A stretch of DNA of 64,000 nucleotides from Synergistota bacterium. Its GTDB lineage: Bacteria > Synergistota > GBS-1. The stretch covers positions 65,657 through 129,656 of the forward strand of contig JANXBX010000006.1 in the NCBI GenBank assembly GCA_025060595.1. The letters are read 5' to 3'. The notes under the pieces were generated by a model. It worked only from the letters and a program-made list of their open reading frames with translations. It did not search any database and was not told where the DNA came from. Below, piece after piece: positions 54,380 to 56,080 of the stretch. Position 1 is the stretch's first letter. Each line of letters begins with the position of its first letter. The position numbers were made by a program, and so were the translations under genes.

Positions 54380-56080
54380 TTGAAAAAAGAACAAAAAACA
54401 GGAAACGCATCAAAACTCTTAGAAAGTATCGAAAACATGTTCTTCGAGATTTTCCAATTAACTTGGCTTTTAAACGAAAATATAAAGGTTTTTGAAAACA
54501 TAGCTGAAAGTTTCTCTAACGTAGAAAAGCTTAATATTAAGAGCTTTGACAATGCCTCAATAATAATGGAGATAGTGAATGAACTTGTAAAAATATCCAA
54601 CAAACTAAGGGAAGAAACTCTACGAGCGAAAAACATTACAGAAACACTTGAAAACACCTGTAGAAACTTAAGCATCTCTATAGCTATGGCGCGGAACGCT
54701 TTAGAAGAACAAGAAAAAATCTTCAAAAAGGTTGTAGAAACTAATGAAAATCTTATAAATCAATCAGGAGCCGTAGCAGAAATAATAAAAACTTTAAACC
54801 TGCTTGCTAAACAGATAAACCTGCTTTCTCTCAACGCCTCTATAGAAGCCGTAAAGGCCGGTGAAAAAGGGAAAGGCTTTGCGGTTGTATCACAAGAGAT
54901 AAGAAAACTCTCAGAAAAAACAAGAGAGGCTAACTCTGAAATAGAAAAAACGATCAAAAATATCGTGAACACGATAAAGGAATCTTTTGAAATAACTAAT
55001 AAATCCTTTGAAGAGTTTTCGAAACTTAAAGAATCGTTTAAGGCGTTTATGGGTTTTATATCCCAAACGGCCTCAGGATTCGAAAACGTTTTTCAAGTAA
55101 CAACAACGATAAATAGCATATCTGATGAAGTTCTTAAAGTAACAAACAAAATAGAGGAATCTTCAAGGGAAATTTTTGATACATCTAAGAATGTAAGAGA
55201 GCTATCAAGGGAGGTGGGAAATACCGTAAAGACCCAAGAAAGCAAAAACCAAGAGGTTTTAAAAATGATATCCTCTCTCAACAAAACCCTTTTCGATATA
55301 CAAAGGCAAGCATCCACCTTAAGATCCGAACAGGAGATAATTTTTGGAGTCAATCCTTTCACAAATCCTAAAACTATAAGAGAGATGTACTACCCCATAA
55401 TAAAGTGGGCTTGCGAAAAAGCAGGTTATACATCAAGAATGGTTATCGTTCACAGTTACGATGCTTTGACTCAAGCCTTAAAAGAAGAGATAGTTGATGG
55501 AGGTTGGTTTTCCCCATTCGCATATGTTGAAGCAAAGGAGACTTTGGATAATATAGTTCCTATAGCGACTCCCATAGTTAACGGAAGAGCAAGCTACGAT
55601 GGATATATTATTACCTCCAAAAAGTCCAATATAAAAAGCCTTAAAGACCTTAAAGGAAAGCGCTTCGGATTTGTAGATCCCAAAAGCGCTTCAGGTTATC
55701 TATTTTCAAAATATGCTCTACTTCAAGAGGGAATAAACCCTGATAAGGACTTCAAAGAAACCCTCTTCCTGGGAAGTCACGATAATGTTATAAAGGCTGT
55801 TCTTCAAGGAGAAATAGATGCAGGTGCCACTTACAATGAAGCACTAGAAAGAGCTAAAGAACAGGGAGTAGACATAAGTGATGTAGTTATAATAAACACC
55901 GTTAAAGATATACCTAAAGACGCAATAGTCTTACTTAATCGCCTACCACATAACTTCATAGAAAAATTCAAGGAGGCGCTTCTTTCATTTAAACAAGCCA
56001 AGGGAATTCAAGGTTTTGTTGAAGCAAGAGATGAGCGCTATGACATCATAAGAAGGGTTAAAAAAACTATATCTTTATAA
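54380..56080 (+). CDS. Soluble chemoreceptor-like protein: an MCP signalling domain fused to a C-terminal PhnD/SsuA-type periplasmic-binding-protein domain, with no TM segments
   Basis: TTG start after AGGAGGTGA. MCP signature [34 protein letters not shown]. The C-terminal ~250 aa match PhnD-like binding proteins ([11 protein letters not shown]...[18 protein letters not shown]...[10 protein letters not shown]). No hydrophobic helices. Confidence 0.75.
   Translation: [566 protein letters not shown]

What the first reader, a model, noticed from the sequence alone, without database searches (positions are those of the whole stretch)
54380..56080. Cytoplasmic chemoreceptor-like protein with an MCP signalling domain at the N-terminus and a PhnD-type phosphonate/phosphite-binding-protein domain at the C-terminus
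The canonical MCP order is sensor, then TM, then HAMP, then signalling domain. Here the order is inverted. A ~300-aa methyl-accepting signalling domain, with an intact [31 protein letters not shown] core, is followed by a PhnD/SsuA-like type-2 periplasmic-binding-protein fold of ~250 aa. There is no signal peptide and no TM helix.

A binding-protein domain acting as a cytoplasmic C-terminal sensor of a chemoreceptor is a rare architecture. It suggests chemotaxis or energy-taxis signalling keyed to an intracellular anion such as phosphonate, phosphite or a sulfonate. This is one of two inverted receptors in the window.
Basis: seen in the sequence. Interest (0 to 1): 0.6.

Follow-up and report, generated by a model that had tools for sequence, protein, structure and literature searches.

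The report
Soluble chemoreceptor with C-terminal PhnD-like sensor
This gene encodes a membrane-free chemotaxis receptor whose signalling rod is followed, not preceded, by a cytoplasmic "Venus-flytrap" domain of the phosphonate-binding-protein family; it belongs to a sizeable family that I found no study of and that is mislabelled as a transporter component, probably sensing an internal phosphonate-like metabolite.

Summary
ORF 54380..56080(+) encodes 566 aa: MCPsignal (residues 104-273) then a full-length Phosphonate-bd domain (322-554), with no TM helix or signal peptide. AlphaFold gives one 311-residue helical hairpin, a 6-residue linker and a type-II binding-protein fold closest to apo PtxB. 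It is not a frameshift artefact: all 120 listed homologues show the same collinear architecture, and about 30 clusters at 50% identity share it, mostly Clostridia. So it is recurrent rather than rare, though I found no paper on it. The pocket is invariant across the family. It keeps the PhnD oxyanion "head" (Y360, Y406, S436-A-S438, H467) and the Glu/Asp "tail" pair (E487/D514) that binds the amine of 2-aminoethylphosphonate in E. coli PhnD. It lacks the Tyr cap of phosphite binders and the Arg/Thr pair of glycerol-phosphate binders. The same module, with an identical pocket signature, also ends cytoplasmic PAS-GGDEF cyclases, much as the CZB domain occurs in both TlpD and DgcZ. Best reading: a cytoplasmic ligand-gated receptor for an amine-bearing phosph(on)ate-like metabolite. 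The ligand and the chemotaxis output are inferred. This Synergistota clade has also lost the N-terminal membrane anchor and all consensus methylation motifs.

The parts
54380..56080 (+). Complete CDS, 566 aa plus stop: MCP signalling hairpin, short linker, PhnD-like domain
   Evidence: It is 100% identical to NCBI MCS7233598.1 / MDW8192433.1 (Synergistota MAG).
54365..54370 (+). Shine-Dalgarno AGGAGG, 9 nt before the TTG start
   Evidence: Read directly from the sequence. The upstream in-frame stop is at 54371.
54380..55315 (+). Residues 1-312: antiparallel helical hairpin (helices 2-159 and 161-312), i.e. the MCP signalling and adaptation rod, about 44 heptads long
   Evidence: AF2 model with mean pLDDT 86. 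Pfam MCPsignal. Foldseek aligns 307 columns to the 309-residue T. maritima TM1143 cytoplasmic domain 2ch7. Sequence matches to Tsr and TM1143.
54410..54484 (+). Residues 11-35: family-specific conserved N-terminal motif (consensus E.LF...ET.GFD.QQLLWLSKDNI; W29 invariant). It lies at the tip-distal end of the bundle, next to the junction with the PBP domain, and is a candidate signal-input region.
   Evidence: Alignment A1 conservation. The position relative to the C-arm end comes from the hairpin geometry. The role is inferred.
54821..54910 (+). Residues 148-177: hairpin-tip core [30 protein letters not shown] (the kinase/CheW-contact region in known MCPs). It reads V158-K159 where the family and the window's other MCPs have A-R.
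55316..55333 (+). Residues 313-318: short non-helical linker between the end of the C-terminal helix and the first strand of the PBP domain
   Evidence: DSSP on the AF2 model. The junction is conserved (K315 in at least 90% of sequences, E319 in at least 90%).
55334..56074 (+). Residues 319-565: PhnD/PtxB-type (type II) binding-protein domain, modelled in an open, apo-like state
   Evidence: Pfam and NCBIfam. PDB sequence hits to PtxB, ArrX, AioX, PhnD and HtxB. Foldseek TM-score 0.82-0.84 to apo PtxB 5o2k and partly open HtxB 6ghq, against 0.70-0.72 to liganded forms.
55685..55696 (+). S436-A437-S438-G439: the oxyanion 'STS' head motif of the PhnD family, here SAS. All four residues are invariant in the family.
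   Evidence: The motif is defined in PMC5700983.
55778..55780 (+). H467: the conserved head-group histidine (Ec_PhnD H157, Ps_PtxB H155)
55838..55840 (+). E487: aligns with Ec_PhnD E177, one of the two residues that bind the amine of 2-AEP. Invariant in A1.
55919..55921 (+). D514: aligns with Ec_PhnD D205 and with the capping Tyr208 of Te_PtxB. Invariant in A1.
55358..55360 (+). F327, in the invariant N325-P326-F327 loop: occupies the third cap position (Ec_PhnD T14, Te_PtxB D22)
54260..54361 (+). Putative promoter (TTGACT-N17-TAAACT at 54260-54288) and a 5' leader stem-loop (54313-54361) just upstream of the RBS
   Evidence: The TTGACT hexamer and the hairpin position are conserved in a 76%-identity relative, with one compensatory pair change. 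There is no Rfam match. Assignment to this gene is tentative.

Best explanation
The gene encodes a cytoplasmic, ligand-gated chemoreceptor.

Shown here: residues 1-312 form the long antiparallel coiled-coil hairpin typical of methyl-accepting chemotaxis proteins. Its conserved tip is the region that binds CheA and CheW in known receptors. The C-terminal helix runs through a 6-residue linker directly into a PhnD-family two-lobed 'Venus-flytrap' domain. That domain therefore sits at the tip-distal end of the rod, which is where HAMP or sensor input enters in ordinary receptors.

Inferred: a small intracellular metabolite binds in the cleft. Its tetrahedral oxyanion head would be held by Y360, Y406, S436/S438 and H467. 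A cationic (amino) tail would be held by E487 and D514, with F327 packing against it. The best guess is 2-aminoethylphosphonate or a look-alike such as phosphoethanolamine. Lobe closure would pull or twist the C-terminal helix and the conserved N-terminal motif packed beside it. That would change bundle packing and hence kinase control at the tip, as described for the C-terminal CZB domain of TlpD.

The module is a portable cytoplasmic sensor: with the same pocket signature it also terminates PAS-GGDEF diguanylate cyclases. In this Synergistota clade the receptor has lost the family's N-terminal TM hairpin and all consensus methylation motifs, so it probably signals as a soluble, non-methyl-adapting receptor.
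For: Architecture: both domains score far above the curated cut-offs, in the order MCP then PBP. There is no TM helix or signal peptide.

Structure: the AF2 model (mean pLDDT 86) has helices 2-159 and 161-312, a linker at 313-318 and an alpha/beta domain at 319-565.

Fold: the top 42 Foldseek PDB hits are all PhnD-family proteins (PtxB, HtxB, PhnD, ArrX, AioX, GpxB, XAC2383). The best TM-scores (0.82-0.84) are to apo or partly open forms.

Genuine fusion: all 120 listed homologues have both domains at 95-100% query coverage, except the fragment P0009 at 85%. About 30 representatives at 50% identity match a full-length profile in one stretch.

Pocket: the residues aligned to Ec_PhnD Y47/Y93/S127/T128/S129/H157/E177/D205 are Y360/Y406/S436/A437/S438/H467/E487/D514. 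All eight are invariant in the 62-sequence alignment, and the 14-site signature NPFYWYDSASGHED recurs in nearly all group-A representatives. The literature assigns E177/D205 to the -NH3+ of 2AEP, the Tyr cap to phosphite and R223/T247 to glycerol-phosphate hydroxyls (PMC5700983; PMC12718374).

Modularity: PocR-PAS-GGDEF-PBP (P0155) and PAS-GGDEF-PBP (P0153) carry the identical signature and have no TM.

Analogy: TlpD has a C-terminal CZB sensor after its MA domain, and CZB also regulates the cyclase DgcZ.

Conserved input end: W29, K289, G323 and N325 are invariant; Q286, N290, Q308, K315 and E319 are at least 90% conserved.
Against: No ligand was tested or docked. The tail assignment rests on sequence alignment at 24% identity to Ec_PhnD, not on a structural superposition of side chains. 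The third cap residue differs (F327 against T14), and T128 is Ala.

The domain is closer overall to PtxB (E 6e-25) than to Ec_PhnD (E 2e-13), and it fails the PhnD equivalog cut-off (148.7 against 261.1 bits).

Gene neighbourhoods give no ligand clue. The contexts are unrelated and contain no phn or eut genes.

The 64-kb window has no cheA/W/Y/R/B or mot genes, so a chemotaxis pathway in this organism is not shown.

The clade lacks consensus methylation motifs (0 of 9 proteins, against 108 of 111 in the rest of the family) and has A158V/R159K at the tip. That could mean altered or weakened signalling.

The relative orientation of the two parts in the model is uncertain (pTM 0.55).
Confidence: 0.55

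Rival explanations
1. Same architecture and mechanism, but the ligand is a small inorganic or simple oxyanion with no cationic tail: phosphite, phosphate, arsenate or methylphosphonate.
For: The best sequence and fold matches are PtxB (phosphite), ArrX (arsenate) and AioX. The head motif S-x-S...H plus two Tyr is shared by all of these. Phosphate would be a sensible cytoplasmic energy-status signal.
Against: The capping Tyr that excludes larger ligands and gives phosphite specificity (Te_PtxB Y208) is Asp here. Its partner Asp22 is Phe. An invariant buried Glu/Asp pair next to an anion site would be electrostatically unfavourable without a cationic or H-bond-donating tail. The long transmembrane 'group B' receptors, which carry S and F at these two positions, fit a small-anion ligand better.
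Confidence: 0.17
2. The C-terminal domain is not a small-molecule sensor. It would be a degenerate binding-protein fold used for oligomerisation, localisation or protein-protein contact. In this clade the receptor could also be a decaying, non-signalling paralogue.
For: The clade has lost the TM anchor and methylation motifs and has changed two tip residues. There is no linked pathway or metabolic gene. TlpD's C-terminus is reported to be needed for polar localisation (title and abstract of PMC13001251).
Against: All head and tail pocket residues are invariant between clades only about 38% identical overall, and also in the GGDEF fusions. That pattern is expected for a ligand site and not for a scaffold. 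The ORF is intact, with a good RBS, and is 75-88% identical among eight related metagenomic sequences, so it is under purifying selection.
Confidence: 0.15
3. It is what the database name says: a substrate-binding protein of a phosphate/phosphite/phosphonate ABC transporter (the PGAP annotation).
For: NCBIfam TIGR01098 is passed, and NCBI names it that way.
Against: There is no signal peptide or lipobox, so it cannot reach the transporter's outer face. More than half of the protein is an MCP signalling domain. No ABC permease or ATPase gene is adjacent here or in four homologue contexts.
Confidence: 0.02
4. It is an assembly or frameshift artefact that joins an MCP gene to a separate PhnD gene.
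For: None, beyond the unusual domain order.
Against: The same junction (consensus ...LK...EIIFGVNPF...) is conserved in independent isolate genomes, including complete Clostridium chromosomes, and in many metagenomes. The PBP part has no start codon or signal peptide of its own.
Confidence: 0.01

Closest known systems
Helicobacter pylori TlpD / Salmonella McpA (soluble chemoreceptors with a C-terminal CZB sensor domain)
   Same: Both are cytoplasmic receptors with no TM helix. The sensor lies C-terminal to the MA/signalling hairpin, at the tip-distal end. The same sensor module is also found on diguanylate cyclases: CZB in DgcZ, and the PhnD-like module in PAS-GGDEF proteins here.
   Different: The sensor fold is unrelated: a helical Zn-binding CZB against a two-lobed type-II binding-protein fold. 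There is no CZB hit in Pfam. TlpD also has an N-terminal PAS-like domain, and this protein has none. The rod is much longer here (about 311 residues against about 178).
E. coli PhnD (2-aminoethylphosphonate-binding protein of the PhnCDE ABC transporter; PDB 3P7I)
   Same: Same fold and Pfam family. All eight ligand-contacting positions align, and seven are identical, including the amine-binding E177/D205 pair.
   Different: PhnD is exported, free-standing and delivers its ligand to a transporter. This domain is cytoplasmic and fused to a signalling rod. Identity is only 24%. T128 is Ala and cap residue T14 is Phe. The PhnD equivalog HMM cut-off is not reached.
PtxB / HtxB (phosphite and hypophosphite binding proteins)
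   Same: These are the closest solved relatives by sequence (E 6e-25) and by fold (TM-score up to 0.84). They share the S-x-S...H head motif and both Tyr residues.
   Different: The specificity-determining aromatic cap (Tyr208 or Trp52) and its Asp partner are replaced by Asp514 and Phe327, which predicts a larger pocket and a different ligand.
AioX / ArrX (PhnD-family proteins that sense arsenite or arsenate for the AioS / ArrS kinases)
   Same: They are PhnD-family binding proteins used for signalling rather than transport, and are clear sequence and fold relatives.
   Different: They are separate periplasmic proteins that dock onto a membrane kinase. Here the domain is covalently fused, cytoplasmic and coupled to a chemoreceptor.
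44H-type chemoreceptor cytoplasmic domains (T. maritima TM1143, PDB 2CH7; B. subtilis McpB)
   Same: Hairpin length and tip sequence match. Foldseek aligns 307 of 309 residues of 2ch7. The Clostridial family members carry the Thermotoga/Bacillus-type methylation consensus.
   Different: Those receptors receive their input at the N-terminal helix through TM and HAMP. Here there is no HAMP, and the sensor hangs on the C-terminal helix. The heptad class was estimated from length only and was not formally assigned.

Membership tests
Methyl-accepting chemotaxis proteins (MCPsignal, PF00015) | Signalling-domain HMM above the gathering threshold | tested here: met
   91.3 bits against a cut-off of 34.6, residues 104-273
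Methyl-accepting chemotaxis proteins (MCPsignal, PF00015) | Long antiparallel coiled-coil hairpin with the conserved tip (N-x-x-I/V-E-A-x-R-A-G-E-x-G-x-G-F-x-V-V) | tested here: met
   AF2 helices 2-159 and 161-312. The tip is [20 protein letters not shown]. N152, E156, G161, G164, G166 and F167 are invariant in the family, but the usual A-R is V158-K159 in this clade.
Methyl-accepting chemotaxis proteins (MCPsignal, PF00015) | Consensus methylation sites ([ASTG][ASTG]xx[EQ][EQ]xx[ASTG][ASTG], or EExxA[ST]) | tested here: not met
   None in the query or in any of the 9 clade members. They are present in 108 of 111 other family members (loose form) and in both other MCPs of the window. This is a motif search only, so non-consensus sites are not excluded.
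Methyl-accepting chemotaxis proteins (MCPsignal, PF00015) | Works with CheA/CheW (pathway genes present; ternary complex forms) | not testable with these tools
   No che or mot homologues in the 64-kb window. The rest of the genome was not available.
PhnD/PhnT-family substrate-binding proteins (Phosphonate-bd PF12974; TIGR01098) | Family HMMs above their cut-offs, full-length domain | tested here: met
   PF12974 scores 209 bits (cut-off 27) over profile positions 1-242 of 242. TIGR01098 scores 172.5 bits (cut-off 112).
PhnD/PhnT-family substrate-binding proteins (Phosphonate-bd PF12974; TIGR01098) | Type-II two-lobed binding-protein fold | tested here: met
   Foldseek probability 1.00 and TM-score 0.82-0.84 to PtxB and HtxB
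PhnD/PhnT-family substrate-binding proteins (Phosphonate-bd PF12974; TIGR01098) | Head-group motif S-T-S...H plus two Tyr | tested here: met
   S436-A437-S438, H467, Y360 and Y406 are all invariant. The middle Thr is Ala.
PhnD/PhnT-family substrate-binding proteins (Phosphonate-bd PF12974; TIGR01098) | Exported (signal peptide or lipoprotein) and encoded with an ABC permease and ATPase | tested here: not met
   No signal peptide or TM. No ABC genes next to it here or in four homologue loci. It is therefore a family member by fold and descent, but not a transporter component.
Ec_PhnD-type 2-aminoethylphosphonate binders ('D/T/E cap', PMC5700983) | Asp205 / Thr14 / Glu177 cap | tested here: inconclusive
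   Asp (D514) and Glu (E487) are present and invariant, but Thr14 is replaced by the invariant F327. The PhnD equivalog TIGR03431 scores 148.7, below the 261.1 cut-off.
PtxB-type phosphite binders | Capping Tyr (Te_PtxB Y208) stabilised by Asp22, giving the P-H...pi contact | tested here: not met
   The aligned residues are D514 and F327
GpxB-type glycerol-phosphate binders | Arg223/Thr247 tail pair at the E177/D205 positions | tested here: not met
   The query has Glu and Asp at those positions
CZB-regulated soluble chemoreceptors (TlpD/McpA) | C-terminal CZB (Zn-binding helical) domain | tested here: not met
   No CZB family among the Pfam hits at E<=1. The C-terminal domain is an alpha/beta PBP fold. 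The similarity is one of topology and logic, not of family membership.

The most novel reading that the evidence does not exclude
A PhnD-type Venus-flytrap domain, from a class of proteins described as extracytosolic, has been recruited as a portable cytoplasmic metabolite sensor. It plugs onto the C-terminus of both chemoreceptors and diguanylate cyclases. Its ligand would be an amine-bearing phosph(on)ate such as 2-aminoethylphosphonate or phosphoethanolamine. That would give anaerobes (Clostridia, Synergistota) a previously unrecognised 'metabolism-dependent' taxis and c-di-GMP input keyed to phosphonate or phospholipid-headgroup metabolism. The Synergistota form would be a soluble, methylation-independent variant.
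Probability: 0.3. Interest if true: 0.7.

Novelty: new variant of a known kind. Interest (0 to 1): 0.5.

Why it matters
Most chemoreceptor ligands are unknown, and cytoplasmic receptors are the least understood class. This family has an unusually readable sensor: the PhnD/PtxB pocket 'code' (head residues plus a two-residue tail selector) has been worked out structurally. The family therefore makes a specific prediction that can be tested cheaply, namely an amine-bearing phosph(on)ate. If the prediction holds, several things follow:
- It would be an example of a solute-binding-protein fold of the PhnD family acting as an intracellular sensor fused after an output domain.
- It would link phosphonate or phospholipid-headgroup metabolism to motility and c-di-GMP in anaerobes.
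- It would provide a second system, alongside TlpD-CZB, for studying how a C-terminal sensor drives the chemoreceptor rod.
- It would provide a natural scaffold for cytoplasmic biosensors.

There is also a practical point. The family is systematically mis-named 'ABC transporter substrate-binding protein' by automatic annotation, which inflates counts of phosphonate transporters in Clostridial and Synergistota genomes.

Tried and rejected
(1) The genome-contig scan with the family alignment was unproductive. One of the two back-translated patterns was the universal MCP tip, so the 80 loci returned were generic MCPs covering only residues of roughly 10-350, and none was a full-length relative.

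(2) Gene-context analysis of four family members showed unrelated neighbourhoods and gave no ligand clue. P0028 was not on record.

(3) A glycerol-3-phosphate ligand was considered, because the C. magnum homologue follows glpF-glpP-glpK and GpxB is a PhnD-family G3P binder. I set it aside because GpxB uses Arg/Thr where this family has Glu/Asp, and the glp linkage is a single case.

(4) Rfam search of the 5' region found nothing near any gathering score. The sigma-70 and terminator pattern counts were not above shuffled expectation.

(5) Literature. No paper in the held library combines Phosphonate-bd/PF12974 with chemoreceptor/PF00015 in the sense of a fusion. Two key reviews could not be read: Collins et al. 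2014 on cytoplasmic chemoreceptors, and Ortega/Zhulin/Krell 2017 on sensor repertoires. One was not held, and for the other I supplied a wrong PMC id. Prior listing of this architecture in domain censuses therefore cannot be excluded. From memory, C-terminal-sensor topologies are a catalogued class.

(6) The afdb50 fold library was unavailable.

(7) The frameshift and transporter-SBP readings were considered and rejected (see the rival explanations).
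Full report

Yes. It starts at a TTG, with an in-frame stop three codons upstream (54371) and an AGGAGG at 54365-54370.

Pfam places MCPsignal at residues 104-273 (91 bits, cut-off 34.6). It places a complete Phosphonate-bd domain at 322-554 (209 bits, cut-off 27, profile positions 1-242 of 242). NCBIfam's phosphate/phosphite/phosphonate SBP subfamily model TIGR01098 is passed (172.5 bits against 112). 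The PhnD equivalog model is not passed (148.7 against 261.1).

No 19-residue window exceeds a Kyte-Doolittle mean of 1.06, and the N-terminus is charged. There is therefore no TM helix or signal peptide.

The 'second inverted receptor' is also real. ORF 2138..3796(-) has MCPsignal followed by a partial dCache_1.

**2. Is it an artefact?**

No. The protein is already in NCBI at 100% identity (MCS7233598.1 / MDW8192433.1, Synergistota MAG). Eight metagenomic relatives are 75-88% identical. The 111 remaining listed homologues are all 36-41% identical over 95-100% of the query and all carry PF00015 plus PF12974. They include complete Clostridium genomes (C. cochlearium, C. magnum, C. lundense, Clostridium sp. 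JN-9 and others) and Caproiciproducens.

A profile of 62 members was searched against 1.84 billion representatives at 50% identity. About 30 representatives matched end to end in a single stretch at 373 bits or more. The junction itself is conserved (...LK...EIIFGVNPF...).

**3. Anatomy**

The AlphaFold model, built with a 62-sequence alignment, has mean pLDDT 86. It shows two helices (2-159 and 161-312) that form one antiparallel hairpin with the turn at the AGEKGKG tip. A six-residue linker (313-318) follows, and then an alpha/beta domain (319-565).

Foldseek aligns the hairpin to 307 columns of the 309-residue *Thermotoga* TM1143 cytoplasmic domain. The length is therefore about 44 heptads. 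This is an estimate from length, not a formal class assignment.

The C-terminal domain's 42 best PDB matches are all PhnD-family proteins. TM-scores are highest for apo PtxB (5o2k, 0.82-0.84) and partly open HtxB (6ghq, 0.84, rmsd 2.3 A). They are lower for liganded, closed forms (0.70-0.72). The domain is thus modelled as an open flytrap.

Because the sensor follows the C-terminal helix, it sits at the tip-distal end of the rod. There it lies beside a family-specific conserved N-terminal motif (GFD.QQLLW, with W29 invariant). This is the end where ordinary receptors receive HAMP input. The relative orientation of the rod and the domain is not reliable (pTM 0.55).

**4. The pocket**

Published structures define a conserved oxyanion 'head' site for this family: two Tyr, S-T-S and His. 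They also define variable 'tail' or cap positions (PMC5700983; PMC12718374):

| Protein | Cap / tail residues | What they recognise |
|---|---|---|
| PtxB | Tyr208 + Asp22 | cap the H of phosphite |
| E. coli PhnD | Asp205 / Thr14 / Glu177 | Asp and Glu bind the -NH3+ of 2-aminoethylphosphonate |
| GpxB | Arg223 / Thr247 | bind glycerol hydroxyls |

I fetched E. coli PhnD and confirmed that mature numbering equals precursor numbering minus 26. The pairwise alignment and the HMMER alignments to PtxB then give the following mapping:

| E. coli PhnD | Query |
|---|---|
| Y47 | Y360 |
| Y93 | Y406 |
| S127 / T128 / S129 | S436 / A437 / S438 |
| H157 | H467 |
| E177 | E487 |
| D205 (= PtxB cap Tyr) | D514 |
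| T14 (= PtxB D22) | F327 |

All of these query residues are invariant in the 62-sequence alignment. The 14-site signature NPFYWYDSASGHED recurs almost unchanged in the 50%-identity representatives of the family.

An invariant cleft in sequences that are otherwise about 38% identical argues for a real ligand site. The Glu/Asp pair argues for a cationic, amine-type tail on a phosph(on)ate-like head. This is an inference from alignment at 24% identity. The T-to-A and T-to-F differences mean the ligand need not be 2-AEP itself. Phosphoethanolamine, or related amino-phosph(on)ates, -sulfonates or -carboxylates, remain possible.

**5. The module is portable and always cytoplasmic**

Among the profile hits, the same C-terminal domain follows several kinds of protein.

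- It follows cytoplasmic PocR-PAS-GGDEF and PAS-GGDEF diguanylate cyclases (P0155, P0153). These have the identical pocket signature and no TM helix.
- It follows canonical transmembrane MCPs with periplasmic sCache_3_2, Cache_3-Cache_2 or 40H sensors plus HAMP (P0185, P0198, P0166, P0245). In these the only TM helices flank the periplasmic sensor. The cap differs (...STSS-H-S-F), which suggests a different, smaller ligand and dual-input receptors.

This mirrors the CZB domain, which ends the soluble receptor TlpD and also regulates the cyclase DgcZ. In TlpD, small changes at the C-terminal sensor propagate along the coiled coil to the kinase interface.

**6. Variation within the family**

Of the 120 listed homologues, 66 have two N-terminal hydrophobic helices (at about residues 6-24 and 29-47) and 14 have one by the same crude criterion. 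There is no room for a HAMP domain before the rod. They are therefore membrane-anchored, with everything else cytoplasmic. The query clade, the C. cochlearium group and a few others (40 in all) have no TM.

The Synergistota clade is further derived.
- None of its nine proteins has a consensus methylation motif. In contrast, 108 of 111 other members have at least EExxA[ST], for example AASTEEITAS, where the query reads S60-I61.
- Its tip reads EAVKAGE instead of EAARAGE.
- The window's two other MCPs have canonical motifs and tips. This is therefore specific to the receptor and not to the organism.

**7. Context**

The gene is a stand-alone unit and converges on a DUF362/4Fe-4S gene, overlapping it by 14 nt. 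Its neighbours are an SSF symporter, a SPASM remnant, a cupin, GntP and CitMHS permeases. Synteny with a 76%-identity relative is conserved apart from a deletion.

Three distant homologues sit in unrelated neighbourhoods. No che, mot or phn genes occur in the window.

**8. Comparison with what is known**

By fold and descent the C-terminal half is a PhnD/PhnT-family binding protein. It fails the functional hallmarks of a transporter SBP, namely export and ABC partners, so the PGAP name is misleading.

By function it most resembles TlpD-type soluble receptors with C-terminal sensors, but it is not a CZB protein.

I found no paper describing this fusion in the searchable library. A 2021 review of solute-binding proteins in signalling describes SBPs as extracytosolic and lists the PhnD family only through the separate periplasmic protein AioX. 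Two relevant subscription-journal reviews could not be read, so earlier listing in domain censuses is possible.

**9. Verdict**

This is a new variant of a known kind: a cytoplasmic chemoreceptor with a C-terminal sensor, using a sensor fold not characterised in that role. The ligand, the coupling mechanism and the chemotactic output are inferred and have not been shown.

Noticed in passing
window 2138..3796 (-): A second receptor with inverted order. It has an N-terminal hydrophobic anchor (KD 2.56 at about residue 11), MCPsignal at residues 222-373, and then a partial dCache_1 match (profile positions 56-151 of 240) at residues 435-548, with no TM helix between them. This is a Cache-like domain that would be cytoplasmic. 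It carries canonical methylation motifs ([20 protein letters not shown]).
   Followed up: partly
window 53691..54068 (-) and the intergenic region up to 54379: The 126-aa SPASM-only ORF is a deletion remnant. It matches only residues 232-349 of the 349-aa radical-SAM/SPASM protein of the syntenic relative L082. The aldehyde:ferredoxin oxidoreductase gene that lies between it and the receptor gene in L082 is absent here. The only AFOR-like match in the window is a 28%-identity paralogue at 36320-37954.
   Followed up: yes
window 54260..54361 (+): There is a promoter-like TTGACT-N17-TAAACT, then a strong leader stem-loop (dG -31.8 kcal/mol, z -4.2) that ends about 4 nt before the AGGAGG RBS. The TTGACT hexamer and the hairpin position are conserved in a 76%-identity relative, with one compensatory G-C to A-U change. 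There is no Rfam match. It could be an attenuator or a stabilising 5' hairpin. Only two independent sequences were compared.
   Followed up: partly
database proteins P0185, P0198, P0166, P0245 and about 20 similar representatives: A separate 'group B' consists of 830-1085-aa transmembrane MCPs with a periplasmic Cache or 40H sensor, HAMP, MCPsignal and a cytoplasmic C-terminal PhnD-like domain. Their cap positions are Ser and Phe instead of Glu and Asp (signature ~VPLFYHDSTSSHSF). These would be predicted dual-input receptors with a different, probably smaller, anionic ligand.
   Followed up: partly
database proteins P0153 (625 aa) and P0155 (804 aa): These are cytoplasmic PAS-GGDEF and PocR-PAS-GGDEF diguanylate cyclases that end in the same PhnD-like module, with a pocket signature identical to the query's (NPFYWYDSASGHED). 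The same predicted ligand would therefore feed both chemotaxis and c-di-GMP signalling.
   Followed up: partly
window 54380..56080; NCBI MCS7233598.1 / MDW8192433.1 and most homologues: There is a systematic mis-annotation. PGAP and IMG name the whole family 'phosphate/phosphite/phosphonate ABC transporter substrate-binding protein', although more than half of each protein is an MCP signalling domain and none has a signal peptide. UniProt names one member 'Methyl-accepting chemotaxis protein 4'.
   Followed up: yes
L085 6722..11884 (Clostridium magnum LWAE01000001.1): In C. magnum the homologue lies directly downstream of glpF (MIP), glpP (G3P_antiterm) and glpK (FGGY) on the same strand. This is a single-case hint of a link to glycerol-phosphate metabolism. 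It is not supported by the pocket residues, since GpxB uses Arg/Thr at the tail positions.
   Followed up: partly
window, whole 64 kb: There are three MCP genes (2138..3796-, 20438..22456+, 54380..56080+), but phmmer with the E. coli proteins finds no CheA/W/Y/R/B/Z, MotA/B or FlhB homologue, and not even a CheY-like receiver. The region is rich in transporters (AbgT, OPT, SSF, CitMHS, GntP) and in amino-acid and peptide metabolism genes.
   Followed up: partly
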